Shown here one piece after another: positions 18,387-60,010 of a stretch of 64,000 nucleotides of DNA. The notes under the pieces are model-generated. The model saw nothing but the letters and a program-made list of their open reading frames with translations. It was not told the origin of the DNA and made no database searches. A program made the position numbers and the translations under genes. Every line of letters begins with the position of its first letter. Position 1 is the first letter of the stretch. This DNA is from Candidatus Wolfebacteria bacterium GW2011_GWB1_47_1 (GTDB lineage: Bacteria; Patescibacteriota; Minisyncoccia; UBA6257; UBA9933): NCBI GenBank assembly GCA_001029635.1, contig CP011209.1, positions 551,774 through 615,773 of the forward strand, read 5' to 3'.

Positions 18387-18389
18387 TTG

Positions 18390-18473
18390 TGCCCAGAGCC
18401 GGACTCGAACCGGCACGACTGTTGAGGTCAGGGGATTTTAAGTCCCCCGTGTCTACCATTCCACCATCCGGGC
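18390..18473 (-). tRNA. tRNA-Leu (anticodon TAA), type II with long variable arm; CCA not encoded
   Basis: GCCCGGATGGTGGAATGGTAGACACGGGGGACTTAAAATCCCC...GGTTCGAGTCCGGCTCTGGGCA; near-identical to E. coli tRNA-Leu(UAA) in acceptor, D and anticodon arms. Confidence 0.9.
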
Positions 18474-18496
18474 AGGATGAATCGGATATTTATTTG

Positions 18497-18568
18497 AGGC
18501 TCGGGCGGGAATCGAACCCGCGTATAAGAGTTTTGCAGACTCATGCCTTACCACTTGGCCACCGAGCC
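18497..18568 (-). tRNA. tRNA-Cys (anticodon GCA); CCA not encoded
   Basis: GGCTCGGTGGCCAAGTGGTAAGGCATGAGTCTGCAAAACTCT...GCGGGTTCGATTCCCGCCCGAGCCT; cloverleaf with anticodon loop CTGCAAA. Confidence 0.85.
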
Positions 18569-24699: not shown

Positions 24700-24771
24700 C
24701 GCGGGTTAGAGGAACGGTTACCTCGTAAGGCTCATAACCTTGAGAACCGGGTTCGACTCCCGGACCCGCAA
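24700..24771 (+). tRNA. tRNA-Met (CAT), initiator-like: C1:A72 mismatch, discriminator A; CCA not encoded
   Basis: CGCGGGTTAGAGGAACGGTTACCTCGTAAGGCTCATAACCTTGAGAACCGGGTTCGACTCCCGGACCCGCAA; acceptor end CGCGGG.../...CCCGCAA as in bacterial tRNA-fMet. Confidence 0.7.
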
Positions 24772-24795
24772 CAAGCGATCGGAACAGAAGAATAT

Positions 24796-24872
24796 GGCTG
24801 GGTAGCTCAGTTGGTTAGAGCGTAGCACTCATAACGCTAAGGTCGTGGGTCCGATCCCCACCCCAGCCACCA
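24796..24872 (+). tRNA. tRNA-Met (CAT), elongator; CCA encoded
   Basis: GGCTGGGTAGCTCAGTTGGTTAGAGCGTAGCACTCATAACGCTAAGGTCGTGGGTCCGATCCCCACCCCAGCCACCA; 5' half nearly identical to E. coli elongator tRNA-Met. Confidence 0.9.
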
Positions 24873-34989: not shown

Positions 34990-37900
34990 ATGGAAAAAAA
35001 GAACCTCTCACCAAAATCACATCTTGAATTATTGATTCCCGATAAGAAGCATAAAAAGCAGAAGGAAGATGCTGTTCCGCATGGATTCACCGAGGAAGAT
35101 ATTATCCGCAATGAAGCATGGCATGGCAAAAATCCTGCAACTCAGGGAGCCGAGCTACCAAAGCATCGCGCAACGGTGTATTCGTTTGAAGAGACCCGTA
35201 TCCGAAAGACGGCAAATGAATCGCACAATTCTCAAGGGACTGAAGGAGGTGAGCAACGACTACTACAAGAAGAACGGACGATGACCACAGTCGAGCTTCG
35301 CGAGGCGCGTGAAGGCGAGGAGCAACAGATCAAAGAGATTGCTCAACGTGTTTTTGAAGGACGCATGCGGGGTGATGCCACGGAAACGATCGATGCGATG
35401 TTGGCCGAAAAGGGTATCAAGCCGTGGTCTCCCGAGGCTGAGGAGTTCATGCGTAAATGGGATTGGGAGCAGGCCGAAAAGGCGTTTGCCGAACTTGCCC
35501 GTAATCGAGAAGAAGCCGTGCTTGCAGTCAATGAGCCTGAACCCAAAAAGCATATCGAGTTACAGGAATACCAGGAAAAATATGTTGACGGGAAATTTGA
35601 AGCATTCAATATCAACCTGAAAAAGCTTCCGCAGGAGCTTAAGGATGAATTCGAAACGTTGACGTATGGACAGCGGCTATTGTTGGCGGAGAATCTCCAG
35701 CAGCTAACACTTGGACGTATTCAAGAGGAAGCGCAGGATCGGTATCAGAAAGCGATTTTGGAAGCGACATTGTTAACGTCAAAATTATTGGGAAGGGTTT
35801 GGCAGGGTGTCAGTAAGAAGTACCAGATCGCGAAGCATGAGCAGTCGACTGCCCTTGATATCAAACAAGGAGGATTAGCATATCATGGTGAATTACTTAA
35901 ACAGCTTATCGACGGAACAAAGCGTACCGGGCTCGATGCGGTTGAAGGGAAGGGTGGCATGTTGGAGCTTCAATACGTTGAGCCACATCCGTTGATGACC
36001 GAGCGTCAAAAGGAGGAGACGAAGGAATTTAATCGGGTTGCGACTCTGTACGGTAAGATTCCCTATGAATGGTCCCTTGCAACGGCAACTTCTTTGCAGA
36101 AGCAAGAATATGAACGGGTTGCCGGGCAGTTTGAAAAGGCAAAAGAACATATTCTAAGAACTGAGCAGGGAATCATTGGCGATGAGCAGACACTTTTGTT
36201 TGTTGCCGACATGGAACATAAAATTCGTTTGAATCAGTTTTTAAACACGCATCCTGACGCGGAGAAGCAGATTGCATCGATCGAATCGGATACGCTATGG
36301 AAGAAGGTGATTGGGAATGTTGCTACCGAGCGAGGAATTTATTTTGGTGCCGGTGTTGCGGCCCGAACATCTGCGATCGGATTGTTTGGCGCGGTTGGTC
36401 TTCCGCTTGCGGCCGTTGGTATGGGGGGCTGGATGGCGCGAAAGCGTGCGGCTGAAATGTTGCGCGACCGCGAACAGGCGGCACGCAAAGGGAAAAGGGA
36501 TATTTCGCGAGACACCAGGACGGTTATGGGAACTGCCAGTACTATGGCGGACAAGATCGATACATTGTTAAAAAAGATCGAGAGCGAAAGTAATGAAGAA
36601 AAACGTGCACAGCTTGTTGCGCTGCTTGATGTCCGATTAATGCATACGGAAGGCAAGGTACGAAAAGGAGCGGTCGACTTTGGTGGACGGGATCATCGTA
36701 TCATCAACCAATATCATTTGAGTGATGCGCTTACCCGAGCGAGTGCGTTTTTGTCTGTCCGCGATGCCGAACTTGGTACTACTCCGGAAACATTTAAGAA
36801 AGATATCGAGCAAGCATTACGCGTCATTGCTCAATCAAAAAATGAAAAGATCTCCCAGGCACAGAAGGATTATTTACGCAAGCAAATGATCTATGGTGCG
36901 GGGTTGGGTATTGGATTCTTTTCTGCCGGCCGGTATGCGCAAGAAATTGTCCATGCCGCCGGTGATCTGGTCAGCCCGTCTGAGGCTCACGCCAGTGCGG
37001 GCGCAGGAGCTTCGCAGTGGGAAGTTCTCGCGCATCAGAAAAATACCCCAGCTGTTTTCGGTGGTCAGGATGCGTTACGTACTACTGCACTTAAAAATAT
37101 CAATGAGATTGCCATCGCAGGGGTACACGAGCGTGGTCCTATCGTATTGGATATTGGTACGCGCGGGCCCGAAGGTGCGTTTATTGATGAGCTGAAGAAA
37201 CATCCGGAAATTGTCGAGCGATTGGGAATTAAAGATATTGGCGGTGAGGCTCATGATGCGTGGACGGAATTCGCAAAGCAGCAATTAAGCAATCCAGATA
37301 CACTCGAACAATTAAAGAAGTTGGGTTATTCGGCGGACGAAAAAGGATACGCCGACATGATGCATCGGATCGCAAAGGGCAAGATTCTCCTCGAAGAGCG
37401 CGATGGAAAACTGCTTATGCATATGGATGAGCATACGGAATATCTCAAGTCACGGCCCAAAGGGACGATGCTTAAAGAAGTTATTGCTCCTCGAGAAGCA
37501 GTGCCGGCTGATATCCCGAACGAGCCACAGATCCTTGACGAGCTTCTTTCTGCCAGTACGCAGACGATCCCGATGTCCGAAGAACATATTGCCTCCGAGA
37601 ACATTGTGGAAGAAATTCCTAATCCACAGGAGGATGCGGCTGAAACGATCCGGAGGCAGCCGAGCGAGGGGATTCTTTCATTGTTAGGCAGTACCCCGCG
37701 TCCATCTGTCGAGGTGTTTGTCGATGGACAATTCGGTTTAGATGGTGCGGAATATGGCGCGATCAAGAGAGTAAAAGTAGAGACGTTACTAAAGCAAATC
37801 CCTTCGCGTGACGAAGCGTGGGCGATCTGGAGGGGCGATGTTCCGGGTAAAGAGATAACGCTTCCGCATGATGGGATCTATGGCGCGGTTGAGTTCAAAA

Positions 37901-38526
37901 AGCATATTGATCTTGCAGAGCATATTCGGGGGTTGCATCCCGACGATGCCGAAATGCAAGGGGATGTAGATGCATTTATGAAGGCTGCAATTCGCAATAC
38001 ATCACCTAATGAACCCGAACAAGTACTTGAAGCGCGCGAAGTTATCGGGGATACGCTTCCGGTATCCGAAGTGACTAAAGAAGGAGGCATACTGCCTGAT
38101 TCATCATATGTGGATGTTATGCCTGAAGCGATCTCTGTAGCTAAGCCGATTGGTGTGGAGGATATACCGACCGTACCTCAGGTACTGGAAGATGTTTCGA
38201 CCGAACCACAGCCTATGGACGCCATTCCGGGTGTTGAAAAAATGATCGATTCGAATCGATTGGCATTACTCGAAGACGATATTTATAACAGCAAGATGCC
38301 GGTGCAAAAGATTATTACGCATTACAAGGTGGGGAATATTACTGCGGAAGACCTGCAAAATTTCTATAGTCAAAAAGTTGCGGGTGGGGCAAAGTCATCC
38401 CCGGAACTTATCGATGGTATGCGAACCACAATGCGGCATGCCGCAGGAGAGGGAACTCCTCAACAGCAGCTTATGGCAAAACGCACGCTTGAATTAATTA
38501 TTAGGCGCTTACAAGGTATTACATAA
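34990..38526 (+). CDS. giant acidic hypothetical protein (1178 aa) with central TM segments, no recognizable domains
   Basis: single uninterrupted ORF; E/K-rich coiled-coil-like N-terminal third; hydrophobic segments near aa 470-500 and 640-660. Confidence 0.7.
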   Translation: MEKKNLSPKSHLELLIPDKKHKKQKEDAVPHGFTEEDIIRNEAWHGKNPATQGAELPKHRATVYSFEETRIRKTANESHNSQGTEGGEQRLLQEERTMTTVELREAREGEEQQIKEIAQRVFEGRMRGDATETIDAMLAEKGIKPWSPEAEEFMRKWDWEQAEKAFAELARNREEAVLAVNEPEPKKHIELQEYQEKYVDGKFEAFNINLKKLPQELKDEFETLTYGQRLLLAENLQQLTLGRIQEEAQDRYQKAILEATLLTSKLLGRVWQGVSKKYQIAKHEQSTALDIKQGGLAYHGELLKQLIDGTKRTGLDAVEGKGGMLELQYVEPHPLMTERQKEETKEFNRVATLYGKIPYEWSLATATSLQKQEYERVAGQFEKAKEHILRTEQGIIGDEQTLLFVADMEHKIRLNQFLNTHPDAEKQIASIESDTLWKKVIGNVATERGIYFGAGVAARTSAIGLFGAVGLPLAAVGMGGWMARKRAAEMLRDREQAARKGKRDISRDTRTVMGTASTMADKIDTLLKKIESESNEEKRAQLVALLDVRLMHTEGKVRKGAVDFGGRDHRIINQYHLSDALTRASAFLSVRDAELGTTPETFKKDIEQALRVIAQSKNEKISQAQKDYLRKQMIYGAGLGIGFFSAGRYAQEIVHAAGDLVSPSEAHASAGAGASQWEVLAHQKNTPAVFGGQDALRTTALKNINEIAIAGVHERGPIVLDIGTRGPEGAFIDELKKHPEIVERLGIKDIGGEAHDAWTEFAKQQLSNPDTLEQLKKLGYSADEKGYADMMHRIAKGKILLEERDGKLLMHMDEHTEYLKSRPKGTMLKEVIAPREAVPADIPNEPQILDELLSASTQTIPMSEEHIASENIVEEIPNPQEDAAETIRRQPSEGILSLLGSTPRPSVEVFVDGQFGLDGAEYGAIKRVKVETLLKQIPSRDEAWAIWRGDVPGKEITLPHDGIYGAVEFKKHIDLAEHIRGLHPDDAEMQGDVDAFMKAAIRNTSPNEPEQVLEAREVIGDTLPVSEVTKEGGILPDSSYVDVMPEAISVAKPIGVEDIPTVPQVLEDVSTEPQPMDAIPGVEKMIDSNRLALLEDDIYNSKMPVQKIITHYKVGNITAEDLQNFYSQKVAGGAKSSPELIDGMRTTMRHAAGEGTPQQQLMAKRTLELIIRRLQGIT

Positions 38527-38662: not shown

Positions 38663-39697
38663 ATGAAGCGATGGATGTTGCTCGTGGTATTGGCTGCCGT
38701 TTGTGGGGGATGTGCAAGCGTTCCCAAAACGGTCTCGTACACGGACTATGTATGGACGGAGGTGGAAGAACAACAGCCTCCGATCCAGACTATCGTTCCA
38801 AACGATGACTTCGTACCCGTAGAGGCTGAAGTCGTCCAACCGGTAAAAGAAACCGTGACGCAGGCTATTATGCCTACCGAATTTCCCGAGCCGAAAAAGG
38901 ACCGAAAGTATCACCGGATTGGAGGCCCGAATGCCTTCAATACAAACCGGGCGCCCAAGCCGGATGAGATCCGAATTGTGCTTTCCAAAGATGCGTTCGC
39001 GATCATCGACGATCGTAACAACAAGCTTTGGCAGGCATGGCTTCGCGCGGGGACGTGGACATACGCCGCACCGACCAGTGACCCTAATTTTTATCGGGTT
39101 ACCTGGGTCGAGGAGTGTGGTAATAGTGTCCTCAACCCCGACCACATCGCGATCTATGTCCGAGTACGGCGTGAACGCGCTGTACAGCAACCGGTGGAAA
39201 AGAAGGTGGCTGTTGCGCCATTCAAGCTGGTGCAGGTCCCTCAACCGCCGAAGAAGCGGTGGGTTTCGACGCCGGTCACGCGTACGCGTGAACTGACCTG
39301 TCGTGAACGCAAGTCCGGCTGGGGATCTGTGATCGGCGGAGCTCTGGGAGTGGGTGTAGGTATTCTAACCCGCAATAAGGGAATCGCCGCCGTGGCTGGC
39401 GCCGGGGGTACGCTCATCGGCAGCTGGATCGATGGGGGATGTGTAGATTCTGGCGAAGCGGCCCAGGCCATCGGCTTTGGGGCTCTTGGCTACGGACTTA
39501 CCAAGGAGAAAGTTCGACATCACCAGCCGGCGTCGCCATCCTCAGGTGGCCCCGCGCCTCCACCTCCGAATGGACCTTCCATTCCGCCTTCATCGGGCGG
39601 TGGCGGTCCCGCTCCGCTTCCGGCAAACGGCCCGGCCTACTTCAACGGGGGCGCGCCTATCGCTCCTGCCGGACCCACCTTTCTTCCGTTTAATTGA
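38663..39697 (+). CDS. putative lipoprotein with glycine-zipper 2TM domain and Pro/Gly-rich C-terminal tail
   Basis: signal peptide ...LAAVCGGCAS; GSVIGGALGVGVGILTRNKGIAAVAGAGGTLIGSWIDGG glycine zipper; low-complexity PAPPPPNGPSIPPSSGGGGPAP tail. Confidence 0.6.
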   Translation: MKRWMLLVVLAAVCGGCASVPKTVSYTDYVWTEVEEQQPPIQTIVPNDDFVPVEAEVVQPVKETVTQAIMPTEFPEPKKDRKYHRIGGPNAFNTNRAPKPDEIRIVLSKDAFAIIDDRNNKLWQAWLRAGTWTYAAPTSDPNFYRVTWVEECGNSVLNPDHIAIYVRVRRERAVQQPVEKKVAVAPFKLVQVPQPPKKRWVSTPVTRTRELTCRERKSGWGSVIGGALGVGVGILTRNKGIAAVAGAGGTLIGSWIDGGCVDSGEAAQAIGFGALGYGLTKEKVRHHQPASPSSGGPAPPPPNGPSIPPSSGGGGPAPLPANGPAYFNGGAPIAPAGPTFLPFN

Positions 39698-39863: not shown

Positions 39864-41357
39864 ATGACCACCATCATAAAAAAAATAACGGTCGTATTCC
39901 TTGCATTGTTTATGGTTGCCGGAATGGCCGCTCCGTCTGCGACCGCACTTGCGGCGACATTTAACAATGACAGCCGCGATTATGCAACGTTGCAGGTTTC
40001 AAACTACACCCGTAACCCGGGCAGCAATAGTAATTGGTCTAACTCCGTATCCGCAAGCGCAGGCGAAGTCGTCAGCTTCCTGGTGTATTACCACAACACT
40101 GCATCCGACACGGCAAGCAACACCCGTATCCGCGTGCAACTTCCGTCGGGAGCATTTACGAACCGTACGGTTACTGGAGAGGTTTTTTCCTTAACTACTT
40201 CTACCGTAAATGGTTCCGCATCAATCAATCTGTCGTCAAATCAGACGCTGACTTTTATTCCAGGAAGCGTGAGTTGGTATCCGAACCAGTCAACCGTTTC
40301 TCAAACATTGCCGAACGGACAGAACGGCAGTGAAATCGTCTCCTCCAATGGTGTTCTTATTGGAGATATTGCAGGAGGATGGGGTGCGCAAGGATATATT
40401 GTATTTCGCGCGCAGGTGAGTTCCGGTAGTCAGTCGATAGTAGTCAATTCCTCGACTAATGCGCGTAGTCCGTATGTCACCACACGCGCAGCTTCTTCTG
40501 TGTCCCGTTCAAGCGTATTATTGCGTGGGGCAATAAACCCTAACGGGACACTTACTACTGGATGGTTTGAATATGGTGTGACTCCTTCTCTTGGTAGAAC
40601 GACAATCGTTCAGCCTATGGGGCAATCTCAGTACTCGAACGCGTATTCTTCCGTTTTGAGCGGCTTGCAGGCAGGTACGACCTATTATTATCGGGCTGCT
40701 GCTCAGAATTCCTATGGCACGGCGCGCGGGCATATCCTTAGCTTTACGACATCGGGAGGTGTAGTTGCGCAGATTGCTCCGCGCACAATCGTTCAACGTA
40801 CTGCAACCGTTCGTTCGGAAGCGGTCACTATAGGGGATGATGCATTGATCATACTTGATCCATCTATTGATGTCGTTCGGCCTAATGCTGGAGACACGAT
40901 CACCTATACGATCATCTATAAAAACAAAACTAATACGGCATTGCGCGATGCACAATTGAGTATCGTTCTTCCGGAAGATATTGTGTATAGAGAAGCTTCC
41001 GTCGATCCAACCTCGGTTACTGATGGGCAAATCGCATTTAATCTCGGCACTATTGCTGCCCGAGAATCCGGATCCATTGATATTACTTTAATGATAAGCG
41101 AGGCGGTGCGTGCGAATGATTCTTTTTCGATCAATGCATTATTGGATTACGCCAATGGACGTGGCGATATGCAAACGGTAAGCGCCTATCTTGTATTCTT
41201 GGTAAATGATGGAACTGCCGGGTTAGCATCACTTTCGAGCGTTTTCGGGGGGTTGCTTGATAACTGGTTCATTGATCTGGTCCTCGGATTGATCATCGGA
41301 TTTGGTATCTATCATTTCTTCGTTCGACAGAAAGATGAAGTGCTATTGGTAAAATAA
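39864..41357 (+). CDS. secreted cell-surface repeat protein, paralog A (signal peptide, DUF11/CARDB-like N-domain, two ~104-aa repeats, DUF11-like domain, C-terminal TM anchor)
   Basis: MTTIIKKITVVFLALFMVAGMAAPSATALA signal; the ORF-track start 39477 is rejected because paralog alignment fixes ATG 39864; C-terminal WFIDLVLGLIIGFGIYHFFVRQK. Confidence 0.8.
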   Translation: MTTIIKKITVVFLALFMVAGMAAPSATALAATFNNDSRDYATLQVSNYTRNPGSNSNWSNSVSASAGEVVSFLVYYHNTASDTASNTRIRVQLPSGAFTNRTVTGEVFSLTTSTVNGSASINLSSNQTLTFIPGSVSWYPNQSTVSQTLPNGQNGSEIVSSNGVLIGDIAGGWGAQGYIVFRAQVSSGSQSIVVNSSTNARSPYVTTRAASSVSRSSVLLRGAINPNGTLTTGWFEYGVTPSLGRTTIVQPMGQSQYSNAYSSVLSGLQAGTTYYYRAAAQNSYGTARGHILSFTTSGGVVAQIAPRTIVQRTATVRSEAVTIGDDALIILDPSIDVVRPNAGDTITYTIIYKNKTNTALRDAQLSIVLPEDIVYREASVDPTSVTDGQIAFNLGTIAARESGSIDITLMISEAVRANDSFSINALLDYANGRGDMQTVSAYLVFLVNDGTAGLASLSSVFGGLLDNWFIDLVLGLIIGFGIYHFFVRQKDEVLLVK

Positions 41358-41368
41358 TATGTTTCCCA

Positions 41369-41402
41369 TAAAACAGCTCCTCTCGGGTGAGCTGTTTTAG
41401 CT
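41369..41402 (+). terminator. rho-independent terminator
   Basis: AAAACAGCTCCTCTCGGGTGAGCTGTTTTA. Confidence 0.65.
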
Positions 41403-41464
41403 AAAAGGGGGTCGATTATTGTTTTAATAACATCCTCGCAAGCTAATCAATAAAAATCATCATC

Positions 41465-42688
41465 ATGACATTTATCATCAAAAAAATATCCAGCGCATTT
41501 CTTGTTTTACTGGTAATCGTAGGAGTGGTCGCTCCGTCCGCGACCGCACTTGCCGCGACCTTCAACAATGACAGCCGCGATTATGCAACGTTGCAGGTTT
41601 CAAACTACACCCGCAATCCGGGCAGCAGCGCCAATTGGTCCAACTCCGTATCCGCAAACGAAGGCGAAGTAGTCAGCTTCCTCGTGTATTACCACAACAC
41701 CGCATCCGATACGGCAAACAATACCCGCATCCGCGTGAAACTTCCGTCGGGAATGTTTACGAATTCGTCCATCCAGGGAGATGTTTGGGCAAATAACGAA
41801 TCTGCTGTTGCCGGCACTGCATCGGTCAGTCTGTCGTCAAATCAGACACTAACTTTCATCCCGGGAAGTGTTGTATGGTATCCGAACCAGTCAACCGTTT
41901 CGCAGACATTACCAAACGGACAGAATGGCAGTGAAATTGTTTCTTCCAATGGCCTTATCATCGGTGATATCGCTAGTGGATGGGATGCACAGGGATATAT
42001 CGTATTTCGCGCGCAGGTGAGCTCGACTCCTACTGGATCGTTGGCAACCGTTACAACACAGAGTGCAAGTTCGCTTGCACAGCGATCCGCTACCATATCC
42101 GCACTTATTGATGCAAATGGGGCAAACACGTCGACTTGGTTCGAATATGGTACCGCACCATCATTCGGCTCTATAACTGCTGAGCAGACGATTGGATCAA
42201 GTGCTTCCGGTTCTAATATTACCGCATATCTTACTAATCTTTCCCCTAATACTACATATCATTATCGTGCCGTTGCTCGCAATGCCCATGGGATAGCCCA
42301 TGGAGTTACGTTACAATTTTCTACGCTAGTAGCCGGTGCACAGGCGACTGCCGTCACTAATGGAACAAATGATATTACCGGATCATCTGCTACGATAACG
42401 GGGGCTGTTAATCCGAACAATGCAAATACCGCCGTTTGGTTTGAATATGGGACTAGTGCATTGTTCGGTCGTGTTGACGGTAGTCGATCGATCGGCTCTG
42501 GAAGTGCCTCGGTCGAGCTCACTTTTTTGCTTACCGGACTAACTCCGCGAACCTTGTATTATTATAGAGTTGTTGCCCAGAATTCTTACGGAACGACGTA
42601 TGGTTCTACTATATATTTCACAACAAAGGCGGATGGACCTGTTCCTCCTGTTGTGAATGGACCGAGCATTATGCCAAGTTCATACTAA
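41465..42688 (+). CDS. secreted repeat protein, paralog B (same N-domain, three repeats, no C-terminal DUF11/TM anchor)
   Basis: N-terminal ~190 aa almost identical to A/C at DNA level; ends ...KADGPVPPVVNGPSIMPSSY without the anchor module. Confidence 0.75.
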   Translation: MTFIIKKISSAFLVLLVIVGVVAPSATALAATFNNDSRDYATLQVSNYTRNPGSSANWSNSVSANEGEVVSFLVYYHNTASDTANNTRIRVKLPSGMFTNSSIQGDVWANNESAVAGTASVSLSSNQTLTFIPGSVVWYPNQSTVSQTLPNGQNGSEIVSSNGLIIGDIASGWDAQGYIVFRAQVSSTPTGSLATVTTQSASSLAQRSATISALIDANGANTSTWFEYGTAPSFGSITAEQTIGSSASGSNITAYLTNLSPNTTYHYRAVARNAHGIAHGVTLQFSTLVAGAQATAVTNGTNDITGSSATITGAVNPNNANTAVWFEYGTSALFGRVDGSRSIGSGSASVELTFLLTGLTPRTLYYYRVVAQNSYGTTYGSTIYFTTKADGPVPPVVNGPSIMPSSY

Positions 42689-42699
42689 TCAAACGCAAA

Positions 42700-42735
42700 A
42701 AAGAGCATATCAGTGCTCTTTTTTGCGCTTGCGTG
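42700..42735 (+). terminator. rho-independent terminator
   Basis: AAAAAGAGCATATCAGTGCTCTTTTTT. Confidence 0.7.
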
Positions 42736-42772
42736 AAGAGGGGATTTTAGAGATGCGTTTTAGGACACTAAT

Positions 42773-42801
42773 TGACAAAACAGTACGATTTAGTATATAA
42801 T
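42773..42801 (+). promoter_or_regulatory. consensus sigma70 promoter TTGACA-N17-TATAAT with ~100-nt leader
   Basis: TTGACAAAACAGTACGATTTAGTATATAAT. Confidence 0.65.
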
Positions 42802-42899
42802 ACTTATAAGTGATCAATATTCAGATTTTGATCAGGGACGGTAACGATGAATGGATTTAGTTATCCATTTTGAAATAGTAATATTAGTATCATATCCAT

Positions 42900-45332
42900 A
42901 TGACCACCATCATCAAAAAAATAACCATCGCATTCCTTGCCTTACTGGTAATCGTAGGAGTGGTCGCTCCATTTGCTAACGTTTTTGCCGCGACCTTCAA
43001 CAATGACAGCCGCGATTATGCAACGTTGCAGGTTTCAAACTACACCCGCAATCCGGGCAGCAGCGCCAATTGGTCCAACTCCGTATCCGCAAACGAAGGC
43101 GAAGTAGTCAGCTTCCTCGTGTATTACCACAACACCGCATCCGATACGGCAAGCAACACCCGTATCCGCGTGCAACTTCCGTCGGGAGCATTTACCAATG
43201 TGTCCATTCAGGGAGATGTTTGGGCACATAACGGATCTGCTGTTGCCGGCACTGCATCGGTCAGTCTGTCGTCAAATCAGACACTAACTTTCATCCCGGG
43301 AAGTGTTGCATGGTATCCGAACCAGTCAACCGTTTCTCAAACATTGCCGAACGGACAGAACGGCAGTGAAATTGTTTCTTCCAATGGCCTTATCATCGGT
43401 GATATCGCTAGTGGATGGGATGCACAGGGATACATCGTATTCCGTGCGCAGGTGAGCTCGAATACCGTTAATCCGCCGCAACAGAACGGATCAGCTCCGT
43501 TTGTTTCGACTAATACCGCATCAGCTATTCAGCAGGATCGCGCGACTGTTCAAGGAACCGTCAATCCAAATAATGCAAATACGAATGCTTGGTTCGAATA
43601 TGGAACGACGCAGTCTTTTGGAAACACGACCGGATATCAGGTTATCGGCCTAGGCAATTCCAGTACGAATGCCGTGGGGTACTTCTACAATCTGAATCAG
43701 AATACAACCTATTATTATCGTATTGTCGCCCAAAATGCTTATGGGACGACGTATGGAAACATATTAAGCTTCACAACGCAGGGTTCCACGACTGGCACCG
43801 GCAGCGCACCGTATGCCACAACGCATTCGGCGTATTCTGTCGCACAGAATTCCGCGACGTTACAGGGTGCTGCTAATCCGAATGGGCTTGCCACTACGGC
43901 TTGGTTCGAATATGGAACGACGCAGTCTTTTGGAAACACGACCGGATATCAGACTATTGGTTTAGCGAATTCAGCCTCCACTATTTCCGGATATCTTTCG
44001 AATCTGTCTTCCAATACAACGTATTACTATCGCATTGTCGCACAAAATGCCTATGGGACGACGTATGGGAATACATTGAATGTTATGACACAGCAGTCCT
44101 ACGGAGGAGGCAATAATGGCTCTGTTCCTACTGCCTATACTAATACGGTTTCGGCTTCAGGGGTAAACTCAGCAACATTTAGCGGTTCAGTCAATCCAAA
44201 TGGTAACTATACCAATGCATGGTTTGAATATGGTCTAAGCCAGTCATTGGGGTATACGATTGGGTATCAGGCGCTTGGGTCAAGTAGTTACGCTTCTGCT
44301 ATTACGGCGAATGTGTATAATCTTGCACCGAACACAGCCTACTATTATCGAGCCGTTGCGCAAAATTCTTACGGGACAAACTATGGGACCATTCTAACCT
44401 TTACTACAAGCGGTTCTTCGATCAATAATGCAAGCAAGGCTCCTTATGTTACGAGCCGGGCCGTGCAATCTGTTTTTCGTAATTCCGCATTGATCAACGG
44501 TAATGTTAATCCTAATGGATCACTTACTACCGCATGGTTTGAGTGGGGTGTTACTGCTTCGTTGGGTAGCCGGACCATGATCCAGCCTGTCGGTATGGCA
44601 AACTATTCAGATAGTTATTCCGCTGTGTTGAGTGGATTGTTGCCTGGGACCGATTACTATTATCGGGCTGTTGCACAGAATGCCTATGGGACGACGTACG
44701 GAACTATTCTTACATTTACAACCTCGGCGCAAACTATCGTTCCGGTCGTCGTGAATAATAAGACTACCGAGCCGCGCGTGGTCGTCCAACAGATTACGGG
44801 ATCATCTGCGGTTGAACAGACCGTCATTTTAACTCCCTCGATTGACAAGAGCGATCCGCGAGCAGGGGATGCTGTTAAGTATTCTATTCAATATCGCAAT
44901 GAAGGAGCAAGTGCGATCACTGGAGCAACCGTGAAGATTCTTCTTCCTAGTGAGGTGGAATATGACAGCGCTACGATGAAGCCGAGTTTTGTTGAAGATA
45001 ATGAACTCACCTTCGACTTGGGTACAATCAAGGGTCATAGCCAGGGGGTCATCACGATTAAAGCAACTATCGATACTGCTGTCGATGCGGATAGCGCATT
45101 GATGTTCAGTGCGACATTAAACTATACCGATGCAAAGAAGCAGTTCCAATCTACGAGTGCCTATTTGACCGTCATGGTCGAAGTAGGTTCTGCGGGATTA
45201 GCTTCGCTCTTTGGCGTATTCGGTACGTTATTAAATAATTGGTTTGTTGATCTCGTACTCGGTCTCTTGATCGGATTCGGTATTTACCACTTCTTTGTCC
45301 GACAAAAGGAGGAAGAAGCTCTGATCAAATAA
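42900..45332 (+). CDS. secreted cell-surface repeat protein, paralog C (six ~104-aa repeats, DUF11-like domain, C-terminal TM anchor)
   Basis: 810 aa; repeats each contain NPNG..T.AWFEYG...TTYYYR.VAQN.YGTTYG; C-term WFVDLVLGLLIGFGIYHFFVRQKEEEALIK. Confidence 0.85.
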   Translation: MTTIIKKITIAFLALLVIVGVVAPFANVFAATFNNDSRDYATLQVSNYTRNPGSSANWSNSVSANEGEVVSFLVYYHNTASDTASNTRIRVQLPSGAFTNVSIQGDVWAHNGSAVAGTASVSLSSNQTLTFIPGSVAWYPNQSTVSQTLPNGQNGSEIVSSNGLIIGDIASGWDAQGYIVFRAQVSSNTVNPPQQNGSAPFVSTNTASAIQQDRATVQGTVNPNNANTNAWFEYGTTQSFGNTTGYQVIGLGNSSTNAVGYFYNLNQNTTYYYRIVAQNAYGTTYGNILSFTTQGSTTGTGSAPYATTHSAYSVAQNSATLQGAANPNGLATTAWFEYGTTQSFGNTTGYQTIGLANSASTISGYLSNLSSNTTYYYRIVAQNAYGTTYGNTLNVMTQQSYGGGNNGSVPTAYTNTVSASGVNSATFSGSVNPNGNYTNAWFEYGLSQSLGYTIGYQALGSSSYASAITANVYNLAPNTAYYYRAVAQNSYGTNYGTILTFTTSGSSINNASKAPYVTSRAVQSVFRNSALINGNVNPNGSLTTAWFEWGVTASLGSRTMIQPVGMANYSDSYSAVLSGLLPGTDYYYRAVAQNAYGTTYGTILTFTTSAQTIVPVVVNNKTTEPRVVVQQITGSSAVEQTVILTPSIDKSDPRAGDAVKYSIQYRNEGASAITGATVKILLPSEVEYDSATMKPSFVEDNELTFDLGTIKGHSQGVITIKATIDTAVDADSALMFSATLNYTDAKKQFQSTSAYLTVMVEVGSAGLASLFGVFGTLLNNWFVDLVLGLLIGFGIYHFFVRQKEEEALIK
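43589..44212 (+). repeat. two adjacent 312-nt intragenic tandem repeat units (two protein repeats) with long identical stretches
   Basis: TTGGTTCGAATATGGAACGACGCAGTCTTTTGGAAACACGACCGGATATCAG occurs at 43589 and again at 43901. Confidence 0.8.
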
Positions 45333-45356
45333 ACGATTTGCACAACCATTACAATC

Positions 45357-45385
45357 CCCGCTAAAGCGGGGATTTTCGGACGCAA
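45357..45385 (+). terminator. hairpin terminator
   Basis: AATCCCCGCTAAAGCGGGGATTTTC. Confidence 0.6.
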
Positions 45386-53007: not shown

Positions 53008-53694
53008 ATGGCTGATTTATATCATGTATTAAATAGGGGGGTTGATAAGAAGAAAATTTTTATAGATGATCAGGACCATTTTCGATTCGTCCATGATCTC
53101 TACGAATTTAATGACGTCGAATCCGCTGATTACATAAGAAATAGCAGGAAGCTTTTTATTAAAGCTAATTTTCCGTCATTCGATGACGGAAAATTAGAAG
53201 AGAGGCAGTCATTAGTGCATGTTCATGCATTTTGTTTAATGCCCAATCACTACCATTTACTACTTAGTCCTGTGGTTGAGGGAGGGATTCCAAAGTTTAT
53301 GAAGAAGTTGAACATGGGGTACTCGCGGTATTTCAATGAGCGGTATGAGCGGAAGGGGACATTGTTTGAAGGAAGATATAAATCAGTTCCAGTGGCGGCG
53401 CAAGCACACTTTATTCATCTGCCATACTATATTCACTTGAATCCATTAGACATGTTCGACTATGGATGGCGGGATCACGCAGTACATAACCATGCCGATG
53501 CAATGCACTATCTTGAGCAGTATCGTTGGTCGAGTCATCTGGATTATCTTGGCAAGAAAAATTTCCCTTCGGTCACACAGCGGGATTTCCTGCTTGAGTT
53601 TTTTGGAGGGCATGAGGGGTATGCGCGGGCACTTGATCGATGGGTGAGGGATATTAGTGTCGGGGATATCCAAGATGTTTTGTTGGAAATATAA
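53008..53694 (+). mobile_element. IS200-like HUH (Y1) tyrosine transposase of the REP-associated (RAYT) type, 228 aa
   Basis: YHVLNRG N-terminus, HUH motif LMPNHYHLLL, catalytic Tyr in EGRYKSV; flanked by inverted REP palindromes. Confidence 0.75.
53168..53192. repeat. REP-like palindrome copy inside the RAYT ORF (in-frame, encodes NFPSFDDGK)
   Basis: TTTTCCGTCATTCGATGACGGAAAA, same orientation as the 3' flank copy. Confidence 0.7.
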
Positions 53695-57682: not shown

Positions 57683-58240
57683 ATGTTTACCACCACTAAT
57701 GTTATCCTGTTTCTCGTCGCCCTGCTTGCTATTTGGGTGATCACCATATTTAACGGCCTTATTCGTAGCCGATTTCGTGTACGAGAGGCATGGTCGGATA
57801 TTGAAGTGCAGTTGAAGCGTCGGTATGACCTTATTCCTAACCTTGTTGATACCGTAAAAGGGTATATGACTCATGAAAAGGATGTGTTTGAGAAGGTTAC
57901 CCAGGCGCGTGCGCAGTCGTTGTCCGCGCAAGGACATACCGAGAAGGGAGCCGCCGAAGGGGAATTGACTTCAACGCTAAAGACATTGTTTGCTGTTTCG
58001 GAAAACTATCCTGAGTTGAAGGCCAATACGAATTTCATGGAGTTGCAGCGTGAATTGTCCGATACGGAAAATAAGATTCAAGCTGCGCGTCGATTCTATA
58101 ATGGAAACGTCCTGGACTACAATACTCGAATCCATGTGTTCCCGACTAACCTTATCGCCGGGCTGTTTCATTTTATTAAGGAAGAATTCTTCCAGCTTGA
58201 TAGTGAGGCAGCAAGAGAACCTGTCGCAGTTAAGTTTTAA
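57683..58240 (+). CDS. LemA family membrane protein
   Basis: N-terminal TM + conserved LemA core (VQLKRRYDLIPNLV...ENYPELKANTNF...ARRFYNGNV). Confidence 0.9.
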   Translation: MFTTTNVILFLVALLAIWVITIFNGLIRSRFRVREAWSDIEVQLKRRYDLIPNLVDTVKGYMTHEKDVFEKVTQARAQSLSAQGHTEKGAAEGELTSTLKTLFAVSENYPELKANTNFMELQRELSDTENKIQAARRFYNGNVLDYNTRIHVFPTNLIAGLFHFIKEEFFQLDSEAAREPVAVKF

Positions 58241-58374
58241 TATAAAATATAAAAATATAACATTGTTTTGTTTATGAAAATCTCAAAGAATTTCCAGAAG
58301 GCAGTTGTCATTATTGTCGGTATTATTACCATTGTCGGCATGACGGGTATGTTTTAACGGATAACCCATCATTT

Positions 58375-59049
58375 ATGGAATTATTGCATCTCACTACTTC
58401 CGATGTCGTAAAACTCACCGCGAATTATTTTCCGGTCGATCGTAAAAAATATCCCAACCCAAAAGGTTGGGTTGTTTTCTTGCATATGATGCCCGCGACC
58501 AAGGAATCGTGGAACGTGTTAGCCGATCAGTTGCAGCAGTATGGGTATGCGGGGATTGCGATCGATTTGCGCGGTCACGGGTCTTCGGACGGAGGCCCTC
58601 AAGGATTTATGGAATTTAGCGATGCCGAGCATCAGGATAGTGTTCGCGATATTGATGCGGCCATCGACTTACTTACTGCGATCGGTGCCCGACGTGAGCG
58701 AATTATCCTTATCGGAGCATCGATCGGCGCAAACCTGGCCTTACAATATGTTGTACGCCATCGCGATCTCAAAAAATGCGTGTTGCTTTCTCCCGGGCTT
58801 GATTACCATGGCATCTTGGCGAAGCCGCTTATCGAAGCACTAACCGAAGATAAACAGCTCCTCATCATTGGATCGCATGATGATGATCGCGTCATCGATA
58901 ATGCTGCCGATATTACAACGCTATGGGGTTCTATTCCGCATGGCGTAATCGCACAAAAGGAGTTAGTTGAAACCGGAGGACATGGTAGCACAATACTAAC
59001 CCATCATCCTGAACTCATTGAAACAATCATTACATTTATTACATCATGA
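58375..59049 (+). CDS. alpha/beta hydrolase
   Basis: HGSSDG region, nucleophile elbow GASIGAN, C-terminal His in GGHGS. Confidence 0.75.
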   Translation: MELLHLTTSDVVKLTANYFPVDRKKYPNPKGWVVFLHMMPATKESWNVLADQLQQYGYAGIAIDLRGHGSSDGGPQGFMEFSDAEHQDSVRDIDAAIDLLTAIGARRERIILIGASIGANLALQYVVRHRDLKKCVLLSPGLDYHGILAKPLIEALTEDKQLLIIGSHDDDRVIDNAADITTLWGSIPHGVIAQKELVETGGHGSTILTHHPELIETIITFITS

Positions 59050-59696
59050 CAAAGAAAGATTATTTGCTTGGCGTTGTGGCAGGATTACTTATCGGATTGC
59101 TCGCTATGCCTGCCCTGTCTGCCGGGCTGACCGTATCGCTGTATAATTCCATTCGTATATTCATTATCCCTTTCTTTTTACTGGGTACTCCGTTGGGATT
59201 ATACGTGGCAGCTTTGCTTGGTAAGAAGATCCCTGCCGTATGGCAGATCGGCAAGTTTGGTGTTATTGGTATATTAAACACACTTGTCGATCTTGGTGTC
59301 CTTGCGGCAATCGCTTCCTTTGTCAATTCGCGCTATGGGGTTGAGTCGGATTATATCATTGGAATGATCGGCACGTGGACGGTTACGATCTATACTATGT
59401 ATAAGGCAATCTCCTTTGTGGTTGCGAATATCAATAGCTATCTATGGAACAAGTATTGGACGTTTGCCGTCGGTGTCGCACAGAAGACAAAGGCTGAATA
59501 TCTTCAGTTCTTCATTATTAGTATCGTTGGGTTCGTTATCAATGTTGCCGTATCTTCCGTTGCATTTGTATTTGCCTTGGGCTTAGAAGGTTTGACTTCT
59601 GGGCAAGCGGGATCGATTGGCGCATTAACAGGAACAGTACTAGGCCTCCTATGGAATTTCGTGGGATATAAATTTATCGTATTTAAAAATAAATAA
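59046..59696 (+). CDS. GtrA-like membrane protein with N-terminal extension
   Basis: KFGVIGILNTLVDLGVL ... NSYLWNKYWTF pattern of the GtrA family; 4-nt overlap with the upstream gene. Confidence 0.55.
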   Translation: MTKKDYLLGVVAGLLIGLLAMPALSAGLTVSLYNSIRIFIIPFFLLGTPLGLYVAALLGKKIPAVWQIGKFGVIGILNTLVDLGVLAAIASFVNSRYGVESDYIIGMIGTWTVTIYTMYKAISFVVANINSYLWNKYWTFAVGVAQKTKAEYLQFFIISIVGFVINVAVSSVAFVFALGLEGLTSGQAGSIGALTGTVLGLLWNFVGYKFIVFKNK

Positions 59697-59699
59697 CGA

Positions 59700-59735
59700 A
59701 AAAAATTCATGCGTTGCATGAATTTTTTTATTTTT
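59700..59735 (+). terminator. rho-independent terminator
   Basis: AAAAAAATTCATGCGTTGCATGAATTTTTTT. Confidence 0.75.
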
Positions 59736-60010
59736 TTAAAAAAAATAATTAAAAATAAAATATAAAAATAATTTTTTGAAAAATTTGAGTTATCCACATT
59801 GTAAAAATATTTTTTTTATTACAAAATTAAAGTATAAGAAAAATAAATAAACAAAAGTAAAAAATATTTTTATCTTTTATTTATTTTTTTTATTGCTTGG
59901 TCATCGATTTAAAATATATTTGATTGGTCGACAAATTTATTTTGAATATAAAAACAAATAATATTTTTCATTTATGCATCTCGATGCATTCATGAAATTA
60001 CAACATCACT
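59736..60010. promoter_or_regulatory. ~275-bp extremely AT-rich tract with one perfect DnaA box (TTATCCACA at ~59789) upstream of the KA-repeat micro-protein gene
   Basis: base composition far below window average, A/T homopolymer runs, consensus DnaA box. Confidence 0.5.

What the first reader, a model, noticed from the sequence alone, without database searches (positions are those of the whole stretch)
39864..45332. Tandem array of three paralogous secreted repeat proteins with mosaic conservation (gene conversion / variable surface family)
Genes A (39864-41357), B (41465-42688) and C (42900-45332) each have their own promoter and terminator. Each encodes a signal peptide plus a ~190-aa N-terminal domain that is nearly identical at DNA level, with identical runs over 150 nt. 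The copies then differ in the number of ~104-aa repeats (2, 3 and 6). Each repeat carries NPNG..T.AWFEYG....TTYYYR.VAQN.YGTTYG. A and C end with a diverged DUF11/CARDB-like domain but a strongly conserved C-terminal TM tail. Homogenized ends with a variable middle is the signature of ongoing recombination or concerted evolution in a surface or antigenic protein family.
Basis: partly seen in the sequence, partly recalled or inferred. Interest (0 to 1): 0.68.

Follow-up and report, generated by a model that had tools for sequence, protein, structure and literature searches.

The report
Three surface-protein paralogs with homogenised heads
A groundwater Candidatus Wolfebacteria genome has triplicated a normally single-copy cell-surface protein gene, and gene conversion keeps only the outermost (N-terminal) domain alike in the three copies; this is a familiar evolutionary pattern seen here in a poorly known bacterial group.

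Summary
The three genes exist at the stated coordinates: A 497 aa, B 407 aa, C 810 aa. Several details in the finding are wrong. FN3-like repeat counts are 1, 2 and 4, not 2, 3 and 6. Only B and C share an exact run over 150 nt (168 nt); A-C share 62 nt and A-B 50 nt. The C-terminal TM tail is conserved as protein (70%) but not as DNA (65% nt, 37% at third positions, synonymous sites saturated). So only the 5' ~560 nt are homogenised.

- **Architecture:** signal peptide, a 158-aa N-domain, FN3 stalk, DUF11/CLIPPER domain, TM anchor. B lacks the last two. The N-domain has no Pfam family but is a divergent CLIPPER-like beta-sandwich.
- **Origin:** nine related loci carry one gene in the same synteny. 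C is the orthologue; A and B are old duplicates.
- **Gene conversion:** N-domain dS is 0.12 (B-C) and 0.66 (A-C) against saturation elsewhere. Domain trees disagree, and informative sites cluster (p<=2e-4).
- **Selection:** dN/dS of 0.16-0.24 gives no sign of diversifying (antigenic) selection on the N-domain.
- **Assembly:** assemblies of the same population differ only inside the homogenised tract, so its fine mosaic is assembly-sensitive.

This is a new member of a known kind. The adhesin-like function is inferred, not shown.

The parts
39864..41357 (+). Gene A (497 aa): signal peptide, N-domain, 1 FN3-like repeat, strongly diverged DUF11/CLIPPER domain, C-terminal TM tail. GenBank AKM78351.1 is annotated 15 codons longer.
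41465..42688 (+). Gene B (407 aa): signal peptide, N-domain, 2 diverged FN3-like repeats and a short Pro-rich end. It has no CLIPPER domain and no TM anchor, so it is predicted to be released. AKM78352.1.
42900..45332 (+). Gene C (810 aa): signal peptide, N-domain, 4 FN3-like repeats, CLIPPER domain, TM tail. It is the orthologue of the single-copy gene found in related genomes. AKM78353.1.
39954..40427 (+). N-domain of A (aa 31-188). It is a beta-sandwich (pLDDT 96) with no Pfam family and is distantly CLIPPER-like.
41555..42028 (+). N-domain of B. It is 95% nt-identical to that of C, with dS 0.12.
42990..43463 (+). N-domain of C.
41550..41717 (+). The 168-nt tract of B that is exactly identical to C 42985-43152. 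Draft assemblies carry deletions or paralog switches here.
42985..43152 (+). The 168-nt tract of C that is exactly identical to B 41550-41717.
40275..40336 (+). A 62-nt tract of A exactly identical to C 43311-43372, where B differs at 5 sites. It is a candidate A/C conversion tract.
40473..40769 (+). The single FN3-like repeat of A. It is closest to repeat 4 of C (60% aa).
42059..42634 (+). The two FN3-like repeats of B, only 39-55% aa-identical to any repeat of A, C or the orthologue O3.
43509..44747 (+). The four FN3-like repeats of C (period 312-318 nt). Repeats 1 and 2 share a 74-nt tract at 91% identity (43587-43660 and 43899-43972).
40848..41201 (+). DUF11/CLIPPER domain of A. It is 34-38% aa-identical to that of C and falls outside all orthologues in the domain tree.
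44790..45149 (+). DUF11/CLIPPER domain of C, 60-66% aa-identical to those of the orthologues.
41175..41354 (+). C-terminal tail of A (AGLASL...DLVLGLIIGFGIYHFFVRQK...), modelled as helix-turn-TM helix. Synonymous sites are saturated against C.
45150..45329 (+). C-terminal tail of C, the same conserved motif.
41369..41399 (+). Terminator-like hairpin after A (-14.8 kcal/mol).
42690..42731 (+). Terminator-like hairpin after B (-23.1 kcal/mol).
45353..45374 (+). Terminator-like hairpin after C; the folded 53-nt segment 45333-45385 that contains it has a minimum free energy of -17.5 kcal/mol.
42772..42801 (+). Perfect sigma-70 consensus (TTGACA-18-TATAAT) upstream of C.

Best explanation
**What it is.** The locus is a lineage-specific tandem triplication of a gene that is single-copy and syntenic in related Wolfebacteria and Paceibacteria (dnaK-dnaJ-PCMT-large protein-~300-390-aa protein-[gene]-YkuD-rsmE-uvrB-uvrA).

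**The protein.** It is a type-I cell-surface protein, in this order:
- a Sec signal peptide;
- a distal 158-aa CLIPPER-like beta-sandwich 'head' (the N-domain);
- a stalk of FN3-like domains;
- a membrane-proximal DUF11/CLIPPER domain;
- a highly conserved C-terminal TM helix.

**The three copies.** C (4 FN3) is the orthologue. A (1 FN3, very diverged CLIPPER) and B (2 FN3, no CLIPPER, no anchor) are old duplicates.

**The mechanism.** Homologous, non-reciprocal recombination (gene conversion) between the direct repeats has repeatedly overwritten only the first ~560 nt (signal peptide plus head). It happened most recently between B and C, and in short tracts with A. The tract stops at the head/linker boundary.

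**The outcome.** One head specificity is displayed on stalks of different length (A short, C long) and in a released form (B).

**Shown:** gene structure, domain content, single-copy synteny in relatives, the age difference between the 5' and 3' parts, and purifying selection on the head.

**Inferred:** surface location, an adhesin-like role (binding to a host cell, partner or matrix), and that selection rather than neutral conversion keeps the heads alike.
For: **Genes and domains**
- Gene coordinates and translations.
- Pfam: DUF11 is above its cut-off in A and C. The FN3-type families Pur_ac_phosph_N and fn3 are above cut-off in B and C.
- AF2 model of A has pLDDT 84: three beta-sandwich domains plus helices 452-464 and 468-496.
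- The head alone models at pLDDT 95.9, pTM 0.91.
- The head profile aligns to the family's own CLIPPER profile: hhalign probability 96.5%, E 7e-10, with a ~45-aa insertion.
- The head family has 1094 representative clusters, and in the 150 best-scoring of them the match nearly always begins at about residue 25-60, directly after the signal peptide.

**Single copy in relatives**
- Loci L003/L008, L006/L010, L009, L011, L012, L013, L031 and L032 each carry one gene.

**Age contrast**
- N-domain dS is 0.12 (B-C), 0.66 (A-C) and 0.75 (A-B). A-C dS is 1.8 in FN3 and saturated in CLIPPER and tail.
- C against orthologue O3 is saturated in every segment including the N-domain. That rules out an intrinsic synonymous constraint on the head.

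**Incongruent trees**
- The head tree gives (A,(B,C)). In the CLIPPER tree C sits with the orthologues and A is outermost.
- B's FN3 repeats are only 39-55% identical to any other repeat.

**Mosaic**
- Clusters of sites where one of B/C equals A lie at nt 1-9, 254-291 and 438-462. Permutation p<=2e-4.

**Selection**
- Head dN/dS is 0.16-0.24.

**Known role of the domain**
- CLIPPER/DUF11 domains are typical of fibrillar-adhesin stalks (PMC12617251).
Against: - There is no experimental or expression evidence.
- The head has no significant structural neighbour in the PDB (best E 0.037) or in BFVD, so a binding function is only an analogy.
- A conserved, single-copy, syntenic gene next to an L,D-transpeptidase could equally be a structural envelope component.
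- Part of the fine mosaic inside B and C is assembly-sensitive. L033 is identical to the window over 14.4 kb except for 32 sites, all in the B and C heads and all swapping B/C states.
- Draft L002 has deletions inside the identical tract.
Confidence: 0.72

Rival explanations
1. Recent duplication without gene conversion. The three genes arose recently, and the stalk and CLIPPER parts then diverged very fast under relaxed or positive selection while the head stayed constrained.
For: A's CLIPPER domain has a very high dN (0.82 against C), compared with 0.28 for C against its orthologue. No A- or B-type copy was seen in nine related loci.
Against: Synonymous sites are saturated in the A-C CLIPPER and tail (pS 0.76-0.81) but not in the head (pS 0.44, and 0.11 for B-C). 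Fast protein evolution does not saturate synonymous sites. The head also shows clustered mosaic tracts.
Confidence: 0.07
2. Assembly artefact. The near-identity and mosaic of the heads, or the array itself, come from short-read mis-assembly or consensus collapse among paralogs.
For: - Draft L002 equals the window except for 43-bp and 30-bp deletions inside the 168-nt identical tract.
- L014 is a de Bruijn loop contig with a 127-nt end overlap that joins the 5' end of C to the body of B.
- Cluster members from more than 15 assemblies differ only in aa 1-145, by deletions or block swaps of paralog states.
- In L033 the B and C heads are identical from nt 25 to about nt 533.
Against: - The A-B-C order, with three different gene bodies and unique intergenic regions, is the same in the finished genome, L002 and L033.
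- The exact B and C proteins of the window recur in several other deposited records under separate accessions: 7 and 5 contigs.
- The variant clusters downstream of the 168-nt tract are under 125 nt apart, so they can be phased by single reads.
- The B-C difference count does not depend on phasing, and the contrast with the 3' parts remains.
Confidence: 0.1
3. Contingency or antigenic-variation locus. Recombination among the copies generates surface diversity to escape phage, host or predator recognition.
For: - These are surface proteins in tandem with recombining 5' parts.
- Assemblies of the same population carry different B/C (and once A/C) head combinations, which could be real segregating recombinants.
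- An A8 run lies in the signal-peptide codons of A (39878-39885).
Against: - Conversion here reduces diversity rather than creating it: the heads become alike.
- Head dN/dS is 0.16-0.24.
- There are no promoterless cassettes, and all three genes have their own starts and terminator-like hairpins.
- The substitution spectrum is transition-dominated, not DGR-like.
- Relatives keep a single conserved copy.
Confidence: 0.08
4. Structural envelope or lattice component (S-layer-like, or a self-assembling fibre) rather than an adhesin. The heads stay identical because they contact each other: homotypic head-head packing, or donor-strand-type assembly with B as the unanchored subunit.
For: - The gene is conserved, single-copy and syntenic next to a YkuD L,D-transpeptidase.
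- The mature N-terminus (AATFN.D..D) and the TM tail are nearly invariant across the family.
- Weak fold hits include the RbmA biofilm scaffold and S-layer domains.
Against: No significant structural or sequence match to any S-layer, TasA or pilin family. The AF2 model packs the N-terminal strand onto its own domain. Nothing here tests oligomerisation.
Confidence: 0.2

Closest known systems
Fibrillar adhesins with DUF11/CLIPPER (CnaA-like) stalk domains (Costa et al. 2025, PMC12617251)
   Same: Signal peptide, a distal non-repeat domain, a stalk of tandem Ig-like domains, a PF01345 domain above the Pfam cut-off, and a C-terminal anchor. The head itself is a distant CLIPPER relative (hhalign 96.5%).
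   Different: - The proteins are much shorter, with one CLIPPER domain per protein rather than a CLIPPER array, and the stalk is made of FN3-like domains.
- The anchor is a conserved TM helix, not LPXTG, OmpA or an archaeosortase signal.
- By eye the isopeptide Lys/Asp/Asn triad is not evident (for example '..ILLP'/'..IVLP' where the catalytic Asp is expected). This was not tested rigorously.
- No known adhesive domain is present.
Concerted evolution by gene conversion in paralogous bacterial surface-protein genes (e.g. Helicobacter pylori babA/babB, Staphylococcus sdrC/D/E, streptococcal Alp/Rib family, Neisseria opa); from my own knowledge, not tested here
   Same: Paralogs share homogenised segments next to divergent segments. 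Recombination tracts end at domain borders. Repeat number differs between copies.
   Different: Here only the 5' head is homogenised and it is under purifying selection. There is no evidence of expression switching or immune or phage pressure. The organism is an uncultured CPR bacterium in which the ancestral state is a single conserved gene.
Vibrio cholerae RbmA (tandem FN3 biofilm scaffold) and other multi-Ig surface proteins
   Same: They are the top Foldseek matches of the full-length model (E ~1e-7), consistent with an array of beta-sandwich domains.
   Different: The matches reflect a generic Ig/FN3 array (TM 0.2-0.35, about 10% identity). There is no sequence relationship and no match for the head alone at E<1e-3.
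TasA/camelysin-type secreted fibre subunits (a lead from memory: the mature N-terminus 'A-F-N-D' resembles 'AATFNND')
   Same: A conserved mature N-terminus directly after the signal-peptide cleavage site, and a beta-sandwich body.
   Different: No Pfam or NCBIfam hit to Peptidase_M73 or the SipW-type signal. No TasA structure appears among the 50 best Foldseek PDB matches.

Membership tests
DUF11 / CLIPPER domain (PF01345) | Match to the Pfam HMM above the gathering score | tested here: met
   A scores 31.9 bits and C 37.5 bits against a cut-off of 24.6. B has none. TIGR01451 also hits A above its cut-off.
DUF11 / CLIPPER domain (PF01345) | Intramolecular Lys-Asn isopeptide bond with a catalytic Asp (present only in a subset of the family) | not tested
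By eye the Asp before 'LP' is replaced (A ..SIVLP, C ..KILLP), so the bond is probably absent.
Fibronectin type III-like repeat | Match to FN3-type Pfam models above cut-off, and a beta-sandwich model | tested here: met
   - Pur_ac_phosph_N scores 40.0 bits (B) and 44.5 bits (C) against a cut-off of 30.
- fn3 scores 32.9 bits (B) and 25.3 bits (C) against a cut-off of 25.
- A's single repeat is below the cut-offs (19.3 bits) but is 60% identical to C repeat 4.
- The AF2 model gives a 7-strand sandwich at residues 204-296.
Fibrillar adhesin (operational definition: secreted, adhesive domain, repeated stalk, anchor) | Signal peptide, tandem stalk domains and a cell anchor | tested here: met
   Signal peptide by inspection. 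Stalk of 1-4 FN3 plus CLIPPER. TM helix by hydropathy (peak 1.7-1.8) and in the AF2 model. B lacks the anchor.
Fibrillar adhesin (operational definition) | A recognised adhesive or ligand-binding domain, or demonstrated binding | not testable with these tools
   The head has no Pfam or NCBIfam family and no PDB neighbour at E<1e-3. Binding would need an experiment.
Gene conversion / concerted evolution among paralogs | Paralogs more alike than orthologues in one segment only, with lower synonymous divergence there | tested here: met
   - Head aa identity is 84% (A-C) and 95% (B-C), against 66-75% to orthologues.
- CLIPPER aa identity is 34-38% for A-C, against 60-66% for C to orthologues.
- dS is 0.12-0.75 in the head and saturated elsewhere.
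Gene conversion / concerted evolution among paralogs | Mosaic tracts: non-random clustering of phylogenetically informative sites | tested here: met
   The runs test and the maximum-run permutation give p<=2e-4. Caveat: the assignment of some clusters to B or to C differs between assemblies.
Antigenic / phase-variation (contingency) locus | Diversifying selection or hypervariable segments in the exchanged region | tested here: not met
   Head dN/dS is 0.16-0.24. The exchanged region is the most conserved part.
Antigenic / phase-variation (contingency) locus | Silent donor cassettes, invertible promoters or long simple-sequence tracts | tested here: not met
   All three copies are complete ORFs with terminator-like hairpins. 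TRF finds no significant tandem repeats. The only candidates are A7-A8 runs in the signal-peptide codons.
Diversity-generating retroelement target | Adenine-specific differences between repeat copies | tested here: not met
   Differences are transition-dominated, and A-site differences make up 9-32% in either direction.
Known C-terminal sorting signals (LPXTG/sortase, PEP-/PGF-/GlyGly-CTERM and similar) | Match to an NCBIfam sorting-domain model, or an LPXTG-type motif before the TM helix | tested here: not met
   No NCBIfam hit in the tail at E<=1. No LPXTG. The conserved motif is AGLASL...DLxLGLLIGFGIYHFFVRQK.

The most novel reading that the evidence does not exclude
The 158-aa head is a widespread, unannotated recognition or assembly module of Patescibacteria surface proteins (about 1100 representative clusters; in the 150 best-scoring the match nearly always sits directly behind the signal peptide). 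This Wolfebacteria population would then be actively shuffling and homogenising it among three scaffolds of different reach, one of them soluble. On this reading the different B/C (and A/C) head combinations seen in different assemblies are real segregating recombinants. The locus would be a natural experiment on how an episymbiotic CPR bacterium tunes host or partner attachment.
Probability: 0.15. Interest if true: 0.55.

Novelty: new member of a known kind. Interest (0 to 1): 0.3.

Why it matters
CPR/Patescibacteria are thought to live attached to other cells, yet their surface proteins are almost entirely uncharacterised.

This locus points to a conserved, syntenic surface protein of Wolfebacteria and Paceibacteria. 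It also defines its head as a separate domain family, distantly CLIPPER-like and without a Pfam entry. That gives a concrete candidate for localisation and binding studies.

The evolutionary pattern (tandem duplication plus domain-restricted gene conversion) is textbook and not surprising in itself.

The practical lesson concerns assembly. MAG assemblies of this region disagree exactly within the homogenised tract, so allele-level conclusions from short-read CPR genomes need read-level checks.

Tried and rejected
**Searches that led nowhere**
- A k-mer-seeded homology search with the head alone found a single hit, which wrongly suggested rarity. The exhaustive profile search then found 1094 clusters.
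- PDB sequence searches with A and with C's CLIPPER domain gave nothing significant.
- Foldseek of the full model returned only generic Ig arrays. The head alone gave no hit at E<1e-3 in the PDB or BFVD.
- The genome contigs and metagenome-contig scans returned only distant single-copy relatives. No independent close relative of A was found.
- Literature searches for CPR or Wolfebacteria surface, FN3 or S-layer proteins returned nothing relevant.

**Ideas considered and rejected**
- DGR mutagenesis: rejected on the substitution spectrum.
- Known sortase- or exosortase-type signals: rejected.
- P0029/L014 looked like a natural C-5'/B-3' recombinant. It is a de Bruijn loop contig with a 127-nt end overlap, so it was rejected as evidence of recombination.
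- L002 looked like a strain with a frameshifted B and a shorter C. It is the same genome with deletions inside the identical tract.
- The DUF7619 hit suggested a named family for the head. In homologues that model hits the C-terminal CLIPPER domain instead.

Full report
**1. What is in the sequence**

They are AKM78351.1-AKM78353.1 of a 984,447-bp Candidatus Wolfebacteria (Patescibacteria/CPR) genome from groundwater. GenBank starts A 15 codons earlier. The alignment with B, C and the orthologues supports the start at 39864.

- **N-terminus.** Each protein begins with a Sec-type signal peptide (MT.IIKKI..., cleavage after ALA or VFA). A 158-aa N-domain follows and aligns without gaps.
- **Repeats.** The motif and the ~100-106-aa period are as described.
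- **Pfam.** The repeats match FN3-type families (Pur_ac_phosph_N, fn3, PhoD_N). DUF11 (PF01345, now called CLIPPER) scores above its cut-off in A and C only.
- **B's end.** B stops shortly after its second repeat and has neither the CLIPPER domain nor the TM tail.
- **Transcription signals.** Each gene is followed by a stable hairpin plus U-run. Only C has a convincing promoter match, and promoter-like sites are no more frequent than in shuffles.

**2. DNA similarity**

| Comparison | Result |
|---|---|
| B-C N-domain, nt identity | 95% |
| A against B or C N-domain, nt identity | 80-82% |
| Longest exact run, B-C | 168 nt (41550-41717 = 42985-43152) |
| Longest exact run, A-C | 62 nt |
| Longest exact run, A-B | 50 nt |
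| A-C tail, protein identity | 70% |
| A-C tail, nt identity | 65% |
| A-C tail, third-position identity | 37% |
| A-C tail, longest exact run | 8 nt |

Similarity stops about 10 nt upstream of the ATG and at about nt 560, the domain/linker border. The tail is therefore held by selection on the protein, not by homogenisation.

**3. Evolution**

*Single copy in relatives.* Related genomes were reached through homologues, their contigs and a genome scan. In all of them the synteny is dnaK-dnaJ-PCMT-(large protein)-(~300-390-aa protein)-[one surface-protein gene]-YkuD-rsmE-uvrB-uvrA. The single gene has 3, 4 or 8-9 FN3 repeats. No related locus has an array.

*C is the orthologue.* It is 63-68% identical over its full length to P0003, P0005 and P0007. 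Its repeats 3 and 4 pair with the corresponding repeats of the Wolfebacteria GWE2_44_13 orthologue.

*Synonymous divergence (Nei-Gojobori):*

| Segment | Pair | dS |
|---|---|---|
| N-domain | B-C | 0.12 |
| N-domain | A-C | 0.66 |
| N-domain | A-B | 0.75 |
| FN3 | A-C | 1.8 |
| CLIPPER and tail | A-C | saturated |
| Every segment, including the N-domain | C-orthologue | saturated |

The last row shows that the N-domain has no intrinsic synonymous constraint.

*Other lines of evidence:*
- The domain trees disagree. The N-domain tree gives (A,(B,C)). In the CLIPPER tree C sits among the orthologues and A falls outside everything.
- B's FN3 repeats are only 39-55% identical to any other repeat.
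- Among 131 variable sites in the first 560 nt, sites where one of B/C matches A form tight clusters (nt 1-9, 254-291, 438-462). Permutation p<=2e-4.
- Within C, repeats 1 and 2 share a 74-nt tract at 91% identity.
- Substitutions are transition-dominated, not adenine-specific, so a DGR is excluded.
- N-domain dN/dS is 0.16-0.24.

*Conclusion.* These are old duplicates whose 5' 560 nt have been repeatedly overwritten by gene conversion, under purifying selection on the head.

**4. Assembly caveat**

- Draft L002 (GW2011_GWB1_47_243) is 100% identical to the window over 18.5 kb, except for 43-bp and 30-bp deletions inside the 168-nt identical tract.
- L014 is a 1562-bp loop contig with a 127-nt end overlap that joins the 5' end of C to the body of B.
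- Cluster members from at least 15 assemblies differ from the window only in aa 1-145, by deletions or block swaps of paralog states.
- L033, a 585-kb scaffold from another Rifle sample, differs at 32 sites in 14.4 kb. All 32 are in the B and C heads, all swap B/C states, and they make the two heads identical.

The array and the strong B-C similarity are reproducible. Which variant cluster belongs to which paralog cannot be settled without reads, nor whether real recombinants segregate in the population.

**5. What the protein is**

- **Full-length model.** AF2 models A as three beta-sandwich domains plus a C-terminal helix-turn-TM helix (pLDDT 84).
- **Head model.** The head alone models at pLDDT 95.9 and has no significant PDB or BFVD neighbour.
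- **Head family.** Profile-profile comparison shows the head is a divergent relative of the family's own CLIPPER domain, with a ~45-residue insertion (96.5%, E 7e-10). It forms a large unannotated family of 1094 representative clusters. In the 150 best-scoring of them the match nearly always sits directly after the signal peptide.
- **Known role of CLIPPER.** CLIPPER/DUF11 domains are CnaA-like domains typical of fibrillar-adhesin stalks (PMC12617251).
- **Tail.** The tail (AGLASL...DLxLGLLIGFGIYHFFVRQKEEE) is the most conserved part across orthologues. It matches no known sorting signal.

**6. Interpretation**

The best-supported reading is a type-I anchored, adhesin-like surface protein family. 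One head specificity is displayed on a short stalk (A) and a long stalk (C), and in a released form (B). Gene conversion keeps the heads alike.

Surface location and binding are inferred by analogy. A structural or self-assembling role is a serious rival. The 'antigenic variation' reading is not supported.

**7. Novelty**

Domain-restricted concerted evolution among tandem surface-protein paralogs is well known. This case is new in its organism and protein family, not in its mechanism.

Noticed in passing
window 34990-38526 and 38663-39697: Two genes without any Pfam hit sit immediately upstream of the surface-protein gene, both here and in related genomes (as 896-1178-aa and 293-394-aa genes). 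One encodes a 1178-aa protein. The other encodes a 344-aa protein with an N-terminal Cys-containing signal, a Gly-rich hydrophobic segment and a Pro/Gly-rich end. They may be functional partners of the surface protein.
   Followed up: partly
window 41175-41354 and 45150-45329; homologues P0003-P0014: The C-terminal tail motif DLxLGLLIGFGIYHFFVRQKEEE is more conserved across orthologues (72-84% aa) than the extracellular domains. It matches no known sorting-signal model. It may be a specific membrane interaction or sorting element of Patescibacteria.
   Followed up: partly
window 39878-39885 (A); the equivalent sites in B and C: A has an A8 homopolymer in the Lys-Lys codons of its signal peptide; B and C have A7. 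This is a weak candidate for slipped-strand frameshifting. No variant lengths were seen in the cluster members examined.
   Followed up: no
GenBank records KKU36523.1, KKU73738.1 and others: Draft MAG annotations name A and C 'Peptidase M23'. Pfam finds no M23 domain in either, so the name looks like an annotation error that has been propagated.
   Followed up: yes
window 43587-43660 and 43899-43972: Inside gene C, FN3 repeats 1 and 2 share a 74-nt tract at 91% identity that includes a long exact run, while the rest of the repeats are about 68% identical. This suggests conversion between repeats within the gene.
   Followed up: partly
window 53008-53694: An IS200-like Y1 transposase (PF01797) lies between the MFS transporter and uvrC. 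The related locus L003 has MFS, a 120-aa ORF and uvrC there. Two small hydrophobic minus-strand ORFs follow at 53.7-54.7 kb.
   Followed up: no
window 58001-60000: G+C drops to 0.39 against 0.45-0.52 elsewhere. The region holds an alpha/beta-hydrolase gene (58375-59049) and a GtrA-like membrane protein gene (59046-59696).
   Followed up: no
window 24700-24872 and 18389-18568: Two adjacent tRNA-Met(CAT) genes on the + strand, and a tRNA-Leu(TAA)/tRNA-Cys(GCA) pair on the - strand.
   Followed up: no
L014 (JGI 3300024999) and L002 (LCOE01000002.1): Public contigs of this locus contain assembly artefacts caused by the 168-nt B/C repeat. L014 is a loop contig with a k=127 end overlap. L002 has 43-bp and 30-bp deletions that create a false frameshift in B and a false 800-aa version of C.
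   Followed up: yes
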